A stretch of 55,524 nucleotides of DNA from Candidatus Liptonbacteria bacterium (GTDB lineage: Bacteria; Patescibacteriota; Minisyncoccia; UBA6257; 2-01-FULL-56-20), in contig JACQKU010000021.1 in the NCBI GenBank assembly GCA_016204335.1, forward strand, positions 1 to 55,524, read 5' to 3'. Position numbers and translations under genes: made by a program. Under the pieces are notes generated by a model. That model saw nothing but the letters and a program-made list of their open reading frames with translations, made no database searches and was not told the origin of the DNA. This document shows positions 8,370 to 37,566 of the stretch, one piece after another (position 1 is the first letter of the stretch; each line of letters begins with the position of its first letter).

Positions 8370-8525
8370 GATTGGTTATCAACGAATAACGAATACGATT
8401 TCTCCTCCGAAGGCGGATCCCCGCCTGCGTCCGACTTCGGACGGGCAGGCGCCTCTGGCGGAGAATTTACGAATCTACTTTTTATTTGTTCATTCGTATT
8501 TAATTCGTTATTCGTTGATGGATTT
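8370..8525. mobile_element. Palindromic element with a nested GC hairpin core and cgaataacgaat arms
   Basis: The core ggcggatccccgcctgcgtccgacttcggacgggcaggcgcctctggcggaga (8411-8465) recurs inverted at 22727-22800 with one mismatch by eye. Arms caacgaataacgaatacga and tcgtatttaattcgttattcgttg. Confidence 0.7.
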
Positions 8526-11441
8526 TCACCATTTTTCGACCATCAACATTTTTTCCGGTTCGAATTTCCGATAAATCTCTTCCGTGACGAACGGCATAAA
8601 AGGGTGGAGCATTTTGAGCGATTCAAGTAGAAGCGTTTCGAGCGTTTGGTAAGCGGCTTCGCGATCATTTTCATCAGCGCTGTTCAGCCGCGCCTTGGCA
8701 TCTTCAATTATTTTGTCCGCAAGCGTGTGCCAAATATAATGGTACACGGTTTCGGCGGCCAGGTGGAATTCGAACTTTTCGATATGCGTTGCCACCTTGG
8801 CTTTGATTTTTCGGACTTGTTCTATGTTTTTGCGGTCTTCTTGTGAAAGCGCAGATTTGCGCTGATTACTACGCACCTGCCCGTCCGAAGCCTGGCGAAG
8901 GCGGGGATTTACGCTGATATTTTTTCCGCGTTGGTCCGCGTGCAGTCCGCGTAGTTCCGCGGGTTTGTGCAATTGCACAAACCGCGCGATGTTCCAAATT
9001 TTAGTCGCGAAATTGCGGTACCCGCGGATTTTTTCCTCTGAAATGACAATATCGCGGCCTGCGGTATTGCCGGCAACGAGCGCCATTCGAAGCGCGTCGG
9101 CGCCGTAGAGCTCGGCGACTCCGAGCGGGTCAATCACGTTTCCTTTCGATTTCGACATTTTCTGGCGGTCCTTGTCGAGCACCAGGCCGTGCAGGTACAC
9201 GGTTTTGAAGGGAACTTCGCCGGTCCGGTAGAGCCCGAGCATTATCATCCGCGCGACCCAAAGAAAAAGAATGTCGTATCCTGTTTCCATAACGTCTGTC
9301 GGGTAAAATGTTTTGAAGCCGTTCTTCCTTGTCGCTTGTCGCTTGTCGCTTGTCGCCATTAATGTGGCGAACGGCCATTGCCCCGAAGAAAACCATGTGT
9401 CGAACACATCGGGGTCTTGCTCGTAAAGGTCGCCGCCGCATGTCGAACAAGGGTCGCTTATTGTCAACTCAACTATTTTTGCGTTTTCGATTGCATCGCG
9501 CTCTAGCATTTCCTCGATAGTCCATTTTTTTATGTTTTTAATAATTGTTCTAATCGGACCGCCGTGCGTGACAATGAGAATATTTTTATGGTGATGCGAT
9601 TTCTTGTGATGTTTGAAACTTTCCCATACGCGTTCCTCCAGTTCCTTAAAGCTTTCGCCGCCCGGCGGTTTTCCTTCGTGGGTGTAAAGAATGTCGCCGT
9701 ACATTGCATTGCGGTCGTCCCTCGCCATTCCTTGCGTGATGCCGAGGTGCCGTTCCCTAAGGTTTTTGTCGAAGATTACTTCGGCGCCGGTCGCTTCCCG
9801 GATAATTTCCGCGGTTTCGCGGCAACGGCCCAAGTCGGAACTGATAATAAGGTCGATTCCTCTATGTTTGAGAGTTTCCGCCGCTTTTTTTGCCTGTTGC
9901 CTGCCTTCTCCGTTTAATGGAACATCGGCCTGTCCTTGTGTTCTTCCTTCCTTGTTCCAGTCGGTTTCTCCGTGGCGTATTAAAAACCAGTTGGCTTTTA
10001 TTTTCGGATTGACTGCTGTTTTGCCGCACGTTATGCAGTACCACGCAGGAATTCTTATGCCCCACGTAATCTGCCGCGAGATGTTCCAGTCGCGGAGATT
10101 TTTCATCCAGTTGAAGAATGTTTTTTCAGTTCTCCGCGGTATCAGTTTTATTTTTTTGCTTTTCACCGCTTCCACGCCGAGGTCGCGAAGCGATTTTCCT
10201 CCATTTTGATTTTTGATTTTTCCTGCCCGCCGAAGCATCGGCGCAGGCGGGGATTTTTGATTTTGAGCATGCGGCTCCGCCGTCATGCGAATGAACCACT
10301 GGCTTTTTATCTGCGGTTCTATCGCCGTATTGCATTTGTAGCACACGCGGACGCTGTGTTTGTAATGCTCATCTGTTTTTACAAGCAATCCTTTTGACAC
10401 CAATTTTTCTATAATAAGCAGCCGGGCGTTTTTGATGTGCATGCCGGCGAATTCGCCCGCGACTGGAAGCAATTTACCCCGGAAATCGATAATCTGCTCT
10501 TTTTCGAGTTTGTGCCGCTCGGCGATTTCAAAGTCGGTCGCATCATGCCACGGCGTAATCGTCATCACGCCCGTGCCGAACTTCATATCAATCGCTTTGT
10601 CTTTGACGATTGTCGCCGTAATCGTGCCGTTTATCCATTCCACTTCGATTTTTTGCCCCTGCGCGTATTCCTTGTAGCGCTTGTCGTCAGGGTGCATCAC
10701 CACATATTTGTCGCCGAATTTGGTTTCCGGGCGCGCTGTCGCGATGGTGAACGGTCCGTATTTGAGATAGTAAAACGGGTCTTCCTGTTCGCGGAATTGA
10801 TTCTCGATGTCCGAGAGCGATGTCTGATGTTTCGGGCACCAGTTCACGATGCGCTCGCCCCGGTAAATCAAACCGTCTTTGTAAAGTTTTTCGAATGTTT
10901 CATAAACTATTTTTACGATGTCGGAGTCAAGCGTGAATTTTTCGCGCGACCAGTCGCAGGACGCGCCGAGCCGGCGAAGCTGGTCCTCCATCGTTTTTTT
11001 ATTGTTCTGCGTGAAATCCCAAATTTCTTTGAAAAGTTGTTCGCGGTCGATTTCATATTTATTCCGCCCTTCTTTTTCGAGTTTCTTGTCGAACACCACC
11101 CAAGTTTCGAATCCCGCGTGGTCGGCGCCGGGGAGCCAGAGCGCCTTTTTCCCGCGCATGCGCGCAAAGCGCGTCATAATGTCCTGGAGCGTGACAAACA
11201 CCGCGTGGCCGATGTGGAGCGAGCCGTTCGCGTTCGGCGGCGGCATTATTATTGTAAACGCTGATTTATGCTGATTGACGGGCTGATTTATGCTGATATT
11301 TTTTCGCGTTGATTCGCGTTTAGATTCGCGGAGATTCGCTCCAACCGGCGGCAGCCGGTCGGGATTGAAGTAGCCAGATTTTTCCCAGAGTTTGTAAATC
11401 CGTTCCTCGGTTTTCTGATGGTCGTAGCGCGGTTCGAGCAT
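8526..11441 (-). CDS. valS: Valyl-tRNA synthetase carrying a nested histidine-phosphatase domain and several repeat-derived inserts
   Basis: PPPNANGSLHIGHA (HIGH) and KMSKSKGN (KMSKS) motifs, ValRS-like editing and anticodon-binding regions. Residues ~485-660 read WFLIRHGETDW...ERHLG...IVTHGGPI. Confidence 0.95.
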   Translation of the reverse strand: MLEPRYDHQKTEERIYKLWEKSGYFNPDRLPPVGANLRESKRESTRKNISINQPVNQHKSAFTIIMPPPNANGSLHIGHAVFVTLQDIMTRFARMRGKKALWLPGADHAGFETWVVFDKKLEKEGRNKYEIDREQLFKEIWDFTQNNKKTMEDQLRRLGASCDWSREKFTLDSDIVKIVYETFEKLYKDGLIYRGERIVNWCPKHQTSLSDIENQFREQEDPFYYLKYGPFTIATARPETKFGDKYVVMHPDDKRYKEYAQGQKIEVEWINGTITATIVKDKAIDMKFGTGVMTITPWHDATDFEIAERHKLEKEQIIDFRGKLLPVAGEFAGMHIKNARLLIIEKLVSKGLLVKTDEHYKHSVRVCYKCNTAIEPQIKSQWFIRMTAEPHAQNQKSPPAPMLRRAGKIKNQNGGKSLRDLGVEAVKSKKIKLIPRRTEKTFFNWMKNLRDWNISRQITWGIRIPAWYCITCGKTAVNPKIKANWFLIRHGETDWNKEGRTQGQADVPLNGEGRQQAKKAAETLKHRGIDLIISSDLGRCRETAEIIREATGAEVIFDKNLRERHLGITQGMARDDRNAMYGDILYTHEGKPPGGESFKELEERVWESFKHHKKSHHHKNILIVTHGGPIRTIIKNIKKWTIEEMLERDAIENAKIVELTISDPCSTCGGDLYEQDPDVFDTWFSSGQWPFATLMATSDKRQATRKNGFKTFYPTDVMETGYDILFLWVARMIMLGLYRTGEVPFKTVYLHGLVLDKDRQKMSKSKGNVIDPLGVAELYGADALRMALVAGNTAGRDIVISEEKIRGYRNFATKIWNIARFVQLHKPAELRGLHADQRGKNISVNPRLRQASDGQVRSNQRKSALSQEDRKNIEQVRKIKAKVATHIEKFEFHLAAETVYHYIWHTLADKIIEDAKARLNSADENDREAAYQTLETLLLESLKMLHPFMPFVTEEIYRKFEPEKMLMVEKW

Positions 11442-22726: not shown

Positions 22727-22800
22727 GAGAATCTCCGCCAGAGGCGCCTGCCCATCCGAAGTCGGACGCAGGCGGGGATCCGCCTTTGGCGGAGAACTCC
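22727..22800. mobile_element. GC nested-hairpin core element, inverted copy of 8401-8466
   Basis: Reverse complement matches ggcggatccccgcctgcgtccgacttcgga(c/t)gggcaggcgcctctggcggaga. Flanked by ttgtagccc/gtagcccca (22707-24) and ttgtagcccca (22836-46). Confidence 0.7.
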
Positions 22801-35241: not shown

Positions 35242-37566
35242 TTACTCCGGATGAATTTTTTGTTTGAATTCATCGAGCCGTTCGATAAGCAATGGATATT
35301 TTTTCAAATTTCCGCCGTTTTGGATAACCTTAAGCGCGGCGGCTCTCGATTGCTTGATGAGTTCTATGTCCTGCAGTCCGCGCATCGCAATGTCGGGCAG
35401 GCCGGTTTGTTTTTGTCCGATGAATTCGCCGGGACCGCGCAGTTTCAAATCCTTTTCCGCCAGCTCAAATCCGTTTTTTGCTTCAAGAATCGCTTTCAGA
35501 CGCTCGCTTGTCGCTTTTGAATCCGAATCGGTGAACAGAAAACAAAACGACTGGTGCCCGCCCCTGCCCACTCTGCCGCGGAGCTGGTAGAGTTGCGCGA
35601 GTCCGAATCGCTCGCTTCCCTCTATCATCATTATGCTTGCGTTCGGCACGTCCACGCCTACCTCGATAACCGAAGTTGAAACGAGAATATCGGACTTGCC
35701 TGCCGCGAAGGAGGACATAATTTTTTCTTTTTCTTTTGACCGCATCCTGCCGTGAAGCATCGCCACTCGAAGGTCCGGAAAAATTTTCCGCGAAAGTTTT
35801 TCGTACTCTTCCTTTACTGCCTTGGTTTCCCAAGGCACCGCTGATTTATGCCGATTAAGCTGATTGATGCGGATGTCGTCATCAGCATAAATCCGCTTAT
35901 CATCAGCATTGATCAGCGTGTCCCCGTTAATACGGGGACAGATGACGAATGCCTGCCGCCCCTTTTTAATTTGCTCGCGGATAAACTGATACGCTTTATG
36001 GCGGTTTTCCGGCGCCACGATTTTGGTGGTAATCGGCTTTCTTCCCAAAGGAAGTTCGGTGATAGTTGAAATATCGAGGTCGCCGAAAACAGTGAGCATA
36101 AGCGTGCGGGGTATCGGCGTGGCTGACATACTTAATAGGTGAGGAATCAGAGAACGATTTTTTAATAATTCAGCTCTCTGTTTTACTCCAAATCGATGTT
36201 GTTCATCAATGACCACCAAAGCCAAACTGTTAAACGTTGCGTCTTTCTGAATAAGCGCGTGAGTGCCGACAATTATTTTTATTTCGCCGGCTCCCGCTTT
36301 CTTTTTAAAATCAGTCTTTGAAATTTTCGCTTCAAGGTCATTTTCGTACAGCACTTCTGCGAAAGATGATGTCAGAATGCCGACAGCGGGCTGGTCAGCC
36401 GCGCTGATTCCGTGAAAAAGTTTTTTCAACGTTTCGAAATGCTGGCGCGCGAGTATTTCGGTCGGAGCCATGAAAACGCTTTGAAATCCGTTTTGGCTCG
36501 CGAGCAGAGCCGCGAGCGCGGCGATGACGGTTTTTCCGGAGCCGACATCGCCCTGGAGCAGGCGATTCATCGGCATGGGTTTTTCGATGTCCTGGATAAT
36601 TTCCCAAAGCGATTTTTTTTGCGAAGGAGTGAGCGTGAAAGGCAAACCCTTAAGAATCTCTTTCAGTTTTTCAATGTCAGTTCGTATTGCCGGAGCTTTT
36701 TCCAGCGCGAGTTTCAACTTCTGTTGAGTGTTGAGAATCTGAAGCAGAAACAATTCTTCGAACGCAAACCGTTTTTTTGCCAGAAGCGCCGCGTCAATGG
36801 TGTCCGGAAAATGGACTGCGGCAAGCGCGCGGTTGATGTCGGGAATGCCTGCTGTTGCGAGAACTTCTTTTGGCAGCCAGTCCGTGGGCGGCTCAAGGTT
36901 TTTCAAAATCGGCTGGACAAGAAATCTGATGCCCTTTGATGTCAGTCCGCGGGTTTCGGGGTATATGGGCACCAAACGCGCCGTATGGCGCGTTTCGCTG
37001 ACTGACGCGCCTGCCCGTCCGAAGCTAGGCGCCCGGCCTTCGTAGCCGAAGCTACTTCGGCGGAGTAGGCAAGGCGGGGACTTGACGCTGACTGACGCTG
37101 AATTCTGGGAGATAGAATTTTCCGCGTAGTTCTGCGTATAGTCTGCGTGATTCCGCGCTGGGATGAGTTCGTAGATAGGATGCGAAAGAGCGAGATTATC
37201 TTCGCTTAATGTGATTTTGCCGGAAAAATTCGCCCATCGGCCCGGCCTCAATACATTGAGAAGATACGGTTGATTGAACCAAGTCGCCTTGATGTCGCCT
37301 GATTCGTCCCGGATAATTGCTTCAACAATGACGAACCTCCGCCTGAAGCTTCGTCTGATTTTTATACTCTGAATTACTCCCTGGATTGTTCCGTGCCGGC
37401 CCGGTTCGAGTTCGGCGATTGGAATAATTTCCGAAAAGTCCTCGTAACGGAACGGAAAATGCCAAAGCAGGTCTTTGACGGTGAGAATGTTCAGCTTCGC
37501 GAAATTCCGCAAAAAGCGTGGAGCGATACCGTTTATTTCCGAAAGAAGCGTTTGGAGTTTCAACAC
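35242..37566 (-). CDS. recG: ATP-dependent DNA helicase RecG
   Basis: OB/wedge N-terminal region, GDVGSGKT, DEQHRFG, and RGRVGRG in the C-terminal helicase motifs. Two repeat-derived inserts. GTG or TTG start. Confidence 0.92.
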   Translation of the reverse strand: MLKLQTLLSEINGIAPRFLRNFAKLNILTVKDLLWHFPFRYEDFSEIIPIAELEPGRHGTIQGVIQSIKIRRSFRRRFVIVEAIIRDESGDIKATWFNQPYLLNVLRPGRWANFSGKITLSEDNLALSHPIYELIPARNHADYTQNYAENSISQNSASVSVKSPPCLLRRSSFGYEGRAPSFGRAGASVSETRHTARLVPIYPETRGLTSKGIRFLVQPILKNLEPPTDWLPKEVLATAGIPDINRALAAVHFPDTIDAALLAKKRFAFEELFLLQILNTQQKLKLALEKAPAIRTDIEKLKEILKGLPFTLTPSQKKSLWEIIQDIEKPMPMNRLLQGDVGSGKTVIAALAALLASQNGFQSVFMAPTEILARQHFETLKKLFHGISAADQPAVGILTSSFAEVLYENDLEAKISKTDFKKKAGAGEIKIIVGTHALIQKDATFNSLALVVIDEQHRFGVKQRAELLKNRSLIPHLLSMSATPIPRTLMLTVFGDLDISTITELPLGRKPITTKIVAPENRHKAYQFIREQIKKGRQAFVICPRINGDTLINADDKRIYADDDIRINQLNRHKSAVPWETKAVKEEYEKLSRKIFPDLRVAMLHGRMRSKEKEKIMSSFAAGKSDILVSTSVIEVGVDVPNASIMMIEGSERFGLAQLYQLRGRVGRGGHQSFCFLFTDSDSKATSERLKAILEAKNGFELAEKDLKLRGPGEFIGQKQTGLPDIAMRGLQDIELIKQSRAAALKVIQNGGNLKKYPLLIERLDEFKQKIHPE

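What the first reader, a model, noticed from the sequence alone, without database searches (positions are those of the whole stretch)
9456..9989. Complete histidine-phosphatase (PGAM-type) domain nested inside valyl-tRNA synthetase
The 971-aa ValRS ORF reads as canonical ValRS up to ...RIPAWYCITCGKTAVNPKIKAN. It then switches for about 175 aa to WFLIRHGETDWNKEGRTQG...SSDLGRCRETA...RERHLG...ILIVTHGGPIRT. After that it returns to ValRS: ...SDPCSTCGGDLYEQDPDVFDTWFSS. The inserted block has the hallmark order of branch-1 histidine phosphatases (RHGE at the start, a later ERH, and a THGG near the end), so it looks catalytically intact. It sits between two CxxC pairs (CITC and CSTC), i.e. inside a zinc-knuckle loop of the synthetase. 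Unlike the other inserts in this gene, it is not low-complexity or palindromic. I do not know of this architecture. One speculative reading is a phosphatase positioned at the tRNA-handling face of an aaRS, acting on tRNA ends or a nucleotide or regulatory substrate.
Basis: partly seen in the sequence, partly recalled or inferred. Interest (0 to 1): 0.85.

Follow-up and report, generated by a model that had tools for sequence, protein, structure and literature searches.

The report
Phosphatase domain nested inside valyl-tRNA synthetase
The valyl-tRNA synthetase of this candidate-phyla-radiation bacterium carries a complete histidine-phosphatase domain, apparently still active, spliced into one of its zinc-knuckle loops; the design is conserved in hundreds of related genomes and recurs in isoleucyl-tRNA synthetase, but I found no paper describing it and its substrate is unknown.

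Summary
ORF 8526-11441 (-) is a 971-aa ValRS that scores above the NCBIfam valS cut-offs. Residues 485-663 are a full His_Phos_1 domain (Pfam E=3e-52). It lies between C469xxC472 and C665xxC668, which align to the CP3 zinc-knuckle cysteines 417/420/438/441 of Thermus ValRS. It is not an assembly artefact. Of the 120 best homolog clusters, 118 come from independent assemblies of Patescibacteria (Liptonbacteria, Wolfebacteria, Colwellbacteria) and share the architecture, and the TsaD-ValRS-PrsW-HSP20 synteny is conserved. The catalytic set R489/H490/N496/R539/E563/H626 is kept in 134-141 of 141 ValRS inserts. AlphaFold models the insert at pLDDT 93-98 (pTM 0.87).

New here: CPR IleRS carries the same domain type in its CP3 zinc motif, with the four core residues kept in 98/98. 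Some ValRS and IleRS proteins carry 2-4 copies, partly at two other surface loops. Two insert-less ValRS orthologs nest inside the clade, which indicates secondary loss.

Best reading: a bifunctional housekeeping synthetase with an active phosphomonoesterase. The substrate and any coupling to tRNA charging are inferred, not shown. No paper describing it was found. It is a new variant of a known kind.

The parts
8526..11441 (-). Complete ValRS gene (971 aa plus stop) that hosts the nested domain
   Evidence: ORF. NCBIfam valS NF004349 scores 784 bits (cut-off 704) and TIGR00422 scores 722 bits (cut-off 612). Foldseek match to 1GAX has target-normalised TM 0.74.
10038..11441 (-). ValRS N-terminal part, aa 1-468: first half of the Rossmann fold with HIGH (H76-H79, nt 11205-11216), CP1 editing domain, CP2
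   Evidence: Aligns to 1GAX residues 21-364 and 374-416. H76 and G78 are invariant in the 77-sequence alignment.
10026..10037 (-). First CxxC of the CP3 zinc knuckle (C469-I-T-C472)
   Evidence: Aligns to Thermus ValRS C417/C420. Cys is present in 117 and 115 of 120 homologs.
9990..10025 (-). N-side linker aa 473-484 (GKTAVNPKIKAN), containing a short beta strand
   Evidence: The linker is conserved (N478 in 81, K482 in 86 of 120). AF2 predicts a strand at 475-477 with block pLDDT about 95.
9453..9989 (-). Nested His_Phos_1 (branch-1 histidine phosphatase) domain, aa 485-663. Catalytic codons: R489-H490-G491 (9969-9977), N496 (9954-9956), R539 (9825-9827), E563 (9753-9755), H626 (9564-9566)
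   Evidence: Pfam E=3.1e-52. Phmmer against PhoE 1H2E/1EBB gives E=4e-22, with R, H, N, R, E and H aligned. These residues are conserved in 134-141 of 141 single ValRS inserts. AF2 pLDDT is 93-98.
9438..9449 (-). Second CxxC of the CP3 zinc knuckle (C665-S-T-C668), only about 2-4 residues after the last strand of the phosphatase domain
   Evidence: Aligns to Thermus ValRS C438/C441. Cys is present in 118 of 120 homologs at both positions.
8526..9437 (-). ValRS C-terminal part, aa 669-971: second half of the Rossmann fold (DTWFSS), KMSKS (aa 761-765, nt 9147-9161), SC fold and anticodon-binding helical domain. The gene ends where the Thermus enzyme is at residue 705 of 862, so the C-terminal coiled-coil arm is absent
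   Evidence: Aligns to 1GAX residues 433-593 and 622-705. Anticodon_1 hit. PF10458 is not listed for any of the 120 homologs.

Best explanation
This is the housekeeping valyl-tRNA synthetase of a Patescibacteria (CPR; Paceibacteria/Parcubacteria, near Liptonbacteria) bacterium. A whole, catalytically competent branch-1 histidine-phosphatase domain has been inserted into the loop of its CP3 zinc knuckle and inherited vertically.

Shown:
- The synthetase core is intact (HIGH, KMSKS, CP1 motifs, anticodon domain).
- The phosphatase fold is complete and held by short, conserved linkers.
- Its catalytic residues (nucleophile H490 in RHG, R489, N496, R539, E563, H626) are under purifying selection across the clade.
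- The same domain type has been recruited into the CP3 zinc motif of CPR IleRS. In some lineages it occurs in 2-4 copies or at two other surface loops.

Inferred:
- The protein is bifunctional. It charges tRNA-Val in the normal way.
- The nested domain hydrolyses a phosphomonoester through a phospho-His490 intermediate. It has a PhoE/CobC-like small cap, no mutase-type C-terminal tail, and scores below the dPGM, CobC, GpmB and PspA cut-offs.
- Because the domain recurs specifically in the two sister synthetases ValRS and IleRS, I think it more likely than not that its activity is tied to their reaction cycle or their tRNAs. Candidate substrates are a nucleotide product or a phosphorylated tRNA or nucleotide end. 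The substrate is unknown.
- The domain is accessory rather than essential for aminoacylation, since two orthologs have lost it.
For: - ORF and domain calls.
- Insertion point mapped on 1GAX.
- Catalytic residues aligned to PhoE.
- 118 of the 120 best homolog clusters, from many sources (NCBI, JGI, ENA, Logan), carry PF00133 plus PF00300.
- Residue conservation.
- The insert evolves faster than the core but far slower than the junk inserts (44.5% pairwise identity against 53-70% and 27-32%).
- AF2 mean pLDDT 89.5, pTM 0.87, insert 93-98.
- Conserved synteny TsaD-ValRS(HP)-PrsW-HSP20 in the window and in loci at 52-56% protein identity.
- IleRS with the same domain (TIGR00392 830-893 bits, cut-off 621), with R/H/R/H kept in 98/98 and conserved synteny.
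- Multi-copy and alternative-site insertions.
- Subfamily scores below cut-off (CobC 131 against 163; pgm_1 73 against 82; GpmB, PspA, SixA far below).
Against: - No biochemical data exist, and no substrate can be read from the sequence.
- The insert is not basic (median pI 7.2, net charge 0), so nothing points specifically to RNA binding.
- Extra copies sit at different loops in other lineages. This argues against a need for one precise geometry relative to the tRNA 3' end.
- Two orthologs in the same synteny lack the domain, so ValRS works without it.
- ValRS and IleRS inserts are only about 36% identical, no closer than either is to stand-alone proteins. A common functional origin is therefore not demonstrated.
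- I could not show that one genome carries both ValRS-HP and IleRS-HP.
Confidence: 0.7

Rival explanations
1. Uncoupled hitch-hiker. The nested domain is an ordinary metabolic or salvage phosphatase (PhoE/GpmB/CobC-like). It is encoded inside a highly expressed essential gene of a streamlined genome and has no mechanistic link to aminoacylation.
For: - The closest families are generic small-molecule phosphatases.
- The insert is not basic.
- Copies occur at several different permissive loops.
- The domain has been lost without loss of ValRS.
- The same loops of the window's gene tolerate meaningless repeat-derived inserts.
Against: - Among the 150 best representatives, the only multi-domain hosts found were ValRS and IleRS, hit repeatedly, across Parcubacteria-type and Peregrinibacteria lineages, and sometimes in several copies per protein.
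- The linkers are short and conserved, and the model has a high pTM. This suggests a fixed orientation rather than a loose passenger.
Confidence: 0.3
2. Allosteric sensor or regulatory module. The domain binds a phosphorylated metabolite, or becomes phosphorylated on H490, and so tunes ValRS/IleRS activity to the cell's energy or nutrient state. It does not act as a turnover phosphatase.
For: - The rigid nesting lies in CP3, next to the second half of the catalytic fold (PMC7191050).
- The full ligand-binding and catalytic set is conserved.
- A clade-specific His cluster (H612/H616/H618) lies at the base of the domain, near the attachment point.
Against: Conservation of the general acid E563 and of the complete catalytic tetrad is what turnover requires. 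There is no precedent or direct evidence. The His cluster correlation is confounded by phylogeny.
Confidence: 0.12
3. Purely structural module. The fold serves as a scaffold or tRNA-binding surface, for example compensating for the missing C-terminal coiled-coil arm, and catalysis is irrelevant.
For: The whole clade lacks the Val_tRNA-synt_C arm.
Against: - Catalytic residues are almost invariant.
- Insert-less orthologs P0099 and P0117 also lack the arm.
- ValRS proteins with the insert and the arm exist: the L001 ORF has PF10458, and P0150 matches the valS models to their C-terminal ends.
- The domain is not basic.
Confidence: 0.06
4. Assembly or annotation artefact: a chimeric contig joins a ValRS gene and a phosphatase gene.
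For: None beyond the unusual architecture.
Against: - The reading frame is continuous.
- 118 independent clusters have the same junctions.
- Synteny is conserved.
- Composition is uniform.
- The junctions are modelled confidently by AF2.
Confidence: 0.01

Closest known systems
Bacterial valyl-tRNA synthetase (Thermus thermophilus ValRS, PDB 1GAX)
   Same: Class Ia core with HIGH and KMSKS, a CP1 editing domain, a CP3 zinc knuckle with four Cys at equivalent positions, and an anticodon-binding helical domain. Phmmer E=2e-148 and Foldseek target-normalised TM 0.74.
   Different: The 17-residue loop between Cys420 and Cys438 is replaced by a 192-residue stretch holding a whole phosphatase domain. 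The C-terminal junction and coiled-coil arm (Thermus residues 706-862) are absent. There are three extra low-complexity inserts.
Small-cap branch-1 histidine phosphatases: PhoE of Geobacillus stearothermophilus (1H2E/1EBB), Thermus TTHA0368-type 'alpha-ribazole phosphatase' (1V37), CobC (TIGR03162)
   Same: Same fold and size (about 177-200 aa), and the same catalytic residues in the same order. PhoE and the 1V37-type chains are among the best PDB sequence matches, and TIGR03162 is the best NCBIfam match.
   Different: These are free-standing enzymes. The insert scores below the CobC equivalog cut-off (131 against 163 bits), lacks the last roughly 11 profile positions, and has its termini tied into a zinc knuckle. 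CPR bacteria are not known to make cobalamin (my own knowledge).
Bifunctional RNase H / acid phosphatase (NCBIfam NF005567, Rv2228c type)
   Same: A nucleic-acid enzyme joined to a CobC-like His_Phos_1 domain. The insert matches the phosphatase half of this model (110 bits).
   Different: That is an end-to-end fusion, not a nested insertion. The partner enzyme is different, and the score is far below the family cut-off (326).
CPR isoleucyl-tRNA synthetases with a His_Phos_1 domain in CP3
   Same: Sister class Ia synthetase, with the same kind of domain between the two CxxC pairs of CP3. The catalytic residues are conserved and inheritance is vertical, with conserved synteny.
   Different: The host enzyme is different. 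The inserts are only about 36% identical to the ValRS inserts. The second CxxC lies 25-35 residues after the domain. The ValRS-specific His cluster is missing.
IleRS with an N-acetyltransferase domain (NCBIfam NF040702 ileS_w_GNAT)
   Same: Another class Ia synthetase that carries an extra enzyme domain. It is known to me only from the model's name.
   Different: The added domain is different. The window protein matches only the synthetase part of that model (149 bits against a cut-off of 1999).

Membership tests
Valine--tRNA ligase (class Ia aaRS) | Score above the curated equivalog cut-offs | tested here: met
   NF004349 scores 784.1 bits (cut-off 704). TIGR00422 scores 721.8 bits (cut-off 612.1).
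Valine--tRNA ligase (class Ia aaRS) | HIGH and KMSKS signature motifs | tested here: met
   L75-H-I-G-H79 and K761-M-S-K-S765 are present. They are invariant or nearly invariant in 77 homologs.
Valine--tRNA ligase (class Ia aaRS) | CP1 editing domain with conserved (T)xRPET and GTG...HD motifs | tested here: met
   ATARPETKFGD (T235, R237-T240) and GTGVMTITPWHD are present. They align to 1GAX 'TVRPET' and 'GTGALKVTPAHD'. Editing activity itself was not tested.
Valine--tRNA ligase (class Ia aaRS) | C-terminal coiled-coil tRNA-binding arm (PF10458) typical of bacterial ValRS | tested here: not met
   The ORF ends at the position of Thermus residue 705 of 862. There is no PF10458 hit. The next gene downstream is a PrsW-like membrane protein. 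This is a clade trait and does not affect family membership.
Histidine phosphatase superfamily, branch 1 (PF00300) | Pfam score above the gathering threshold over nearly the whole profile | tested here: met
   177.5 bits (cut-off 21.7), E=3.1e-52, profile positions 2-183 of 194.
Histidine phosphatase superfamily, branch 1 (PF00300) | Catalytic core: RHG with the nucleophilic His, a second Arg, a second His and an acidic proton donor | tested here: met
   R489, H490, N496, R539, E563 and H626 align to the PhoE catalytic positions in the printed alignment (PhoE numbering R10, H11, N17, R59, E83, H151 is from memory). They are kept in 134-141 of 141 ValRS inserts.
Histidine phosphatase superfamily, branch 1 (PF00300) | Phosphatase or mutase activity through a phospho-histidine intermediate | not testable with these tools
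   This needs an enzyme assay with an H490A control.
Cofactor-dependent phosphoglycerate mutase (dPGM; TIGR01258 and NF0107xx equivalogs) | Score above cut-off; long cap and C-terminal tail | tested here: not met
   TIGR01258 scores 72.6 bits (cut-off 81.7). The dPGM equivalogs score 43-85 bits against cut-offs of 225-421, and mostly only the first ~100 residues match. The domain returns to ValRS right after its last strand.
Alpha-ribazole phosphatase CobC (TIGR03162) | Score above the equivalog cut-off | tested here: not met
   131.2 bits for the insert alone, against a cut-off of 162.9.
CP3 zinc knuckle of ValRS/IleRS | Four Cys in two CxxC pairs at the positions of the Thermus ValRS zinc ligands | tested here: met
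   C469, C472, C665 and C668 align to C417, C420, C438 and C441. They are conserved in 115-118 of 120 homologs. A zinc motif in CP3 of Thermus IleRS is stated in PMC7191050. Metal binding itself is not testable here.

The most novel reading that the evidence does not exclude
CPR bacteria have repeatedly built a phosphatase into their two sister synthetases, ValRS and IleRS, because the phosphatase takes part in the tRNA-charging cycle. For example, it might remove a terminal phosphate from damaged or immature tRNA-Val/tRNA-Ile ends before charging. Or it might destroy a nucleotide product or inhibitor at the active-site entrance. That would be a new in-cis repair, quality-control or product-removal step in aminoacylation.
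Probability: 0.2. Interest if true: 0.85.

Novelty: new variant of a known kind. Interest (0 to 1): 0.66.

Why it matters
Aminoacyl-tRNA synthetases are among the most conserved enzymes known. In bacteria their extra domains are almost always editing or RNA-binding modules. Here a complete, selectively maintained enzyme from an unrelated superfamily is nested in the catalytic body of an essential synthetase. It occurs across a large part of the candidate phyla radiation, recurs in IleRS, and is sometimes multiplied.

If the phosphatase is coupled to charging, it would define a new accessory step in translation in organisms with minimal genomes. If it is not coupled, it is a clear natural example of domain nesting in permissive loops of an essential enzyme. 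That would be useful for protein engineering, and the insert would serve as a phylogenetic marker for Paceibacteria-type lineages.

It also explains why NCBI names these proteins only 'class I tRNA ligase family protein'.

Tried and rejected
1. The GTDB genome scan with the insert-plus-flank alignment did not work as intended. Only L001 was informative: a 1262-aa ValRS with two tandem His_Phos domains and the C-terminal arm.

2. I tried to show that one genome carries both ValRS-HP and IleRS-HP, by comparing samples, assemblies and contig lengths. No shared assembly was found. Two contigs of 412,277 and 412,716 bp proved to be different records, so the question stays open.

3. I tested whether the insert is unusually basic, as a hint of RNA binding. 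It is not.

4. I tested whether the insert compensates for the lost C-terminal arm. This is rejected. Insert-less orthologs also lack the arm, and insert-bearing ValRS proteins with the arm exist.

5. I looked for flanking repeats or a composition shift that would indicate recent mobile insertion. None were found.

6. Five of the six literature searches looked for this architecture and found nothing relevant. only supplied the CP3 description.

7. I wanted the distance from H490 to the synthetic site and to the tRNA. The structure tool returns no coordinates or PAE, and /data holds no model.

8. The nearest true stand-alone relatives (P0192, P0137) sit in uninformative contexts that do not look like CPR genomes. 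The donor lineage of the domain is therefore unresolved.
Full report
**1. Observation**

The window has one uninterrupted ORF at 8526..11441 on the minus strand, 971 aa long.
- Pfam splits it into tRNA-synt_1 (2e-115, two stretches), His_Phos_1 (PF00300, E=3.1e-52, aa 486-663, profile 2-183 of 194) and Anticodon_1.
- NCBIfam's two valS equivalogs score 784 and 722 bits, above their cut-offs of 704 and 612.
- The finding's coordinates 9456-9989 translate to aa 485-662, and every quoted motif is present.
- GC content is uniform across the junctions. No repeats flank the insert.

**2. Where the insert sits**

Phmmer against PDB sequences aligns query 426-475 to Thermus thermophilus ValRS (1GAX) residues 374-423. 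It aligns query 662-826 to residues 433-593.
- C469/C472 therefore correspond to Cys417/Cys420, and C665/C668 to Cys438/Cys441.
- The 17-residue loop of the Thermus enzyme is replaced by 192 residues.
- This region is the CP3 subdomain, which links CP2 to the second half of the catalytic fold. It is structurally variable among IleRSs and carries a zinc motif in Thermus IleRS (PMC7191050).
- The four Cys are kept in 115-118 of 120 homologs.
- The ORF ends at the equivalent of Thermus residue 705 of 862, so the C-terminal coiled-coil arm is missing.

**3. Not an artefact, but a lineage-wide architecture**

Among the 120 best 90%-identity clusters, 118 carry PF00133 plus PF00300 at 49-100% identity and, in nearly all (111 of 118), full coverage. 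They come from NCBI, JGI, ENA and Logan assemblies. The names given are Candidatus Liptonbacteria, Wolfebacteria, Colwellbacteria, Paceibacterota and Patescibacteria.

The gene order TsaD - ValRS(HP) - PrsW protease - HSP20 seen in the window recurs around homologs that are only 52-56% identical. One is in a Colwellbacteria assembly (GCA_016178255.1) and another lies on a 412-kb JGI contig. This is a vertically inherited housekeeping gene.

**4. The phosphatase looks active**

The insert aligns to PhoE (1H2E/1EBB, E=4e-22) with R489, H490, N496, R539, E563 and H626 at the PhoE catalytic positions.
- In 141 single ValRS inserts these residues are kept in 134-141.
- Mean pairwise identity in the insert is 44.5%. 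The synthetase core domains show 53-70%, and the three low-complexity inserts show 27-32%.
- AlphaFold2 with a 77-sequence alignment gives mean pLDDT 89.5 and pTM 0.87. The insert and both junctions score 93-98. Confidence is low only at aa 37-56, 395-410 and 840-860.
- Foldseek recovers 1GAX (target-normalised TM 0.74).
- The N-side linker is 12 conserved residues. The C-side linker is about 2-4 residues. The domain is therefore probably held rigidly.
- By topology, the active site lies at the C-terminal ends of the strands, while both termini lie at the opposite end of the fold. The active site should therefore point away from the knuckle. This is inference.

Subfamily assignment fails everywhere:
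- CobC scores 131 bits (cut-off 163).
- pgm_1 scores 73 bits (cut-off 82).
- GpmB, PspA and SixA score far below their cut-offs.

The short cap and the missing C-terminal tail argue for a phosphatase rather than a mutase. This is inference from general knowledge of the superfamily.

**5. Beyond the finding: the same trick in IleRS, in several copies and at several loops**

A profile of the insert plus short flanks, searched against 1.84 billion representatives, found 1427 proteins at E<=1e-30. I parsed the best 150 with local HMMs and checked several with NCBIfam. They fall into five groups:
- (a) ValRS with one insert at CP3.
- (b) Bona fide IleRS (TIGR00392 830-893 bits, cut-off 621) with a His_Phos_1 domain between the CxxC pairs of its own CP3.
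- (c) Tandem pairs at CP3. One example is a 1262-aa ValRS in a GTDB MAG that still has the Val_tRNA-synt_C arm and has no flanking Cys.
- (d) Extra copies at two other loops. P0121 holds four copies.
- (e) Stand-alone single (about 190 aa) and tandem (about 410 aa) relatives.

A second homology search showed that most of the best IleRS clusters carry the domain (112 IleRS proteins with at least one domain in my pooled set). Their names include Parcubacteria, Colwellbacteria, Pacebacteria and Peregrinibacteria. They have their own conserved synteny. The four core residues R/H/R/H are conserved in 98 of 98 single IleRS inserts.

ValRS and IleRS inserts are only about 36% identical to each other. 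That is no closer than either is to stand-alone proteins. The captures are therefore ancient or independent.

The two alternative sites map exactly onto window residues 386/416 and 830/861. These are the loops where the window's own gene carries repeat-derived, low-pLDDT inserts. They are evidently permissive surface loops.

**6. Losses**

Two ValRS orthologs lack the domain.
- P0099 (Ryanbacteria) has an unrelated Cys-less segment of about 80 aa at the site. P0117 has a short Cys-containing loop.
- Both lie in the same ValRS-PrsW-HSP20 synteny, with no His_Phos gene in the DNA retrieved around them (up to 8 kb per side, less for P0117).
- Both fall among insert-bearing sequences in a neighbour-joining tree of the core.
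- P0099 is 65% identical to the window protein over the aligned half. That is more than most insert-bearing homologs.

The domain is therefore dispensable for aminoacylation. Both insert-less proteins also lack the C-terminal arm, and arm-bearing ValRS proteins with the insert exist. The insert is therefore not a replacement for the arm.

**7. Mechanism**

Shown: an intact synthetase and an intact, selectively maintained phosphatase fold, rigidly nested in CP3.

Inferred: a bifunctional enzyme whose nested domain hydrolyses a phosphomonoester through phospho-His490.

Whether that chemistry serves the charging cycle is open.
- For coupling: the domain was recruited repeatedly and specifically into ValRS and IleRS, sometimes in several copies, and its linkers are rigid and conserved.
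- Against coupling: the charge is neutral, the insertion sites vary, the domain has been lost in some lineages, and the closest families are generic small-molecule phosphatases.

My estimates:
- About 0.7 that the domain is an active phosphatase in a bifunctional housekeeping ValRS.
- Within that, roughly even odds between functional coupling and an uncoupled passenger.
- About 0.2 for the specific novel reading, a tRNA-end or product-directed step.

**8. Comparison and novelty**

The core is a member of the valS family, minus the arm. The insert is a member of PF00300 branch 1, but of none of its curated subfamilies.

The nearest analogies are the RNase H/acid phosphatase fusions (NF005567) and IleRS with a GNAT domain (NF040702). 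Both differ from this case in the partner enzyme or the added domain, and the first is an end-to-end fusion rather than a nested insert.

Five literature searches aimed at this architecture found nothing. The sequences are public, but they are auto-annotated only as 'class I tRNA ligase family protein' or as the synthetase.

Verdict: real, conserved, apparently undescribed, a new variant of a known kind. Interest 0.66.

Noticed in passing
window 11260-11297, 10222-10256, 8851-8918 (inside ValRS); 8417-8452 (intergenic); 22767-22779; 35840-35917: The three low-complexity inserts of the ValRS protein (aa about 37-56, 387-415, 831-860; all with pLDDT below 50) coincide with short repeated or palindromic DNA. 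One family is CCTGCCCG...CGGGGAT, with 4 copies of its core against 0.5 expected. The other is GCTGATTTATGCTGAT, with 8 copies against 0.35 expected. Copies also lie in an intergenic spacer, close upstream of the tRNA-Glu gene, and inside another long ORF (35242-37566). This looks like a small repeat element that inserts in frame into coding genes, reminiscent of Rickettsia palindromic elements.
   Followed up: partly
window aa 386/416 and 830/861 of the ValRS (nt about 10197-10283 and 8862-8951): The two loops that hold repeat-derived inserts in this gene are the same loops where other CPR lineages carry additional His_Phos_1 domains. ValRS P0121 and P0139 carry one at the first site. IleRS P0136, P0143, P0209 and P0217 carry one at the second. 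Class Ia synthetases therefore seem to have a few shared permissive insertion loops.
   Followed up: yes
L001:6042-9830 (+), MAG 'bacterium isolate co234_bin65': A 1262-aa ValRS with two tandem His_Phos_1 domains at the CP3 site, no flanking CxxC pairs, and a retained C-terminal Val_tRNA-synt_C arm. It belongs to a separate, more basal ValRS group that also includes proteins with up to four copies (P0121).
   Followed up: partly
proteins P0187, P0275-P0393 (IleRS); loci L087, L094: Many CPR isoleucyl-tRNA synthetases (Parcubacteria, Colwellbacteria, Pacebacteria, Peregrinibacteria) carry a His_Phos_1 domain between the CxxC pairs of their CP3. They share the conserved synteny PGM_PMM - RNase_H_2 - Aminotran_5 - IleRS - class Ib synthetase - RNase J.
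   Followed up: partly
window 8526-9437; protein C-terminus: The ValRS of this whole clade ends right after the anticodon-binding helical domain and lacks the coiled-coil tRNA-binding arm (PF10458) found in typical bacterial ValRS. This holds whether or not the phosphatase insert is present.
   Followed up: partly
ValRS aa 612-620 (nt about 9582-9608): A His-rich patch (H612, H616, H618, K619, N620; HHKKSHHHKN in the window) is conserved in the ValRS inserts that are flanked by the Cys knuckle. It is absent from IleRS inserts, from stand-alone relatives, and from the 9 ValRS inserts without flanking Cys. It lies at the end of the fold nearest the attachment point, so it may be an interface or an extra metal site. 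The correlation is confounded by phylogeny.
   Followed up: partly
proteins P0137, P0148, P0149 and about 60 others; loci L081, L082: Free-standing proteins of about 405-430 aa made of two tandem His_Phos_1 domains, both with full catalytic sets, are among the closest stand-alone relatives of the inserts. The one context examined (Ada/AraC regulator, luciferase-like oxidoreductase, biotin ligase, AlaRS) does not look like a CPR genome.
   Followed up: no
P0099, locus L089:8001-10403: The Ryanbacteria ValRS ortholog has, at the same CP3 site, an unrelated segment of about 80 aa without Cys, in place of both the zinc knuckle and the phosphatase domain. CP3 is therefore an insertion and replacement hotspot.
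   Followed up: partly
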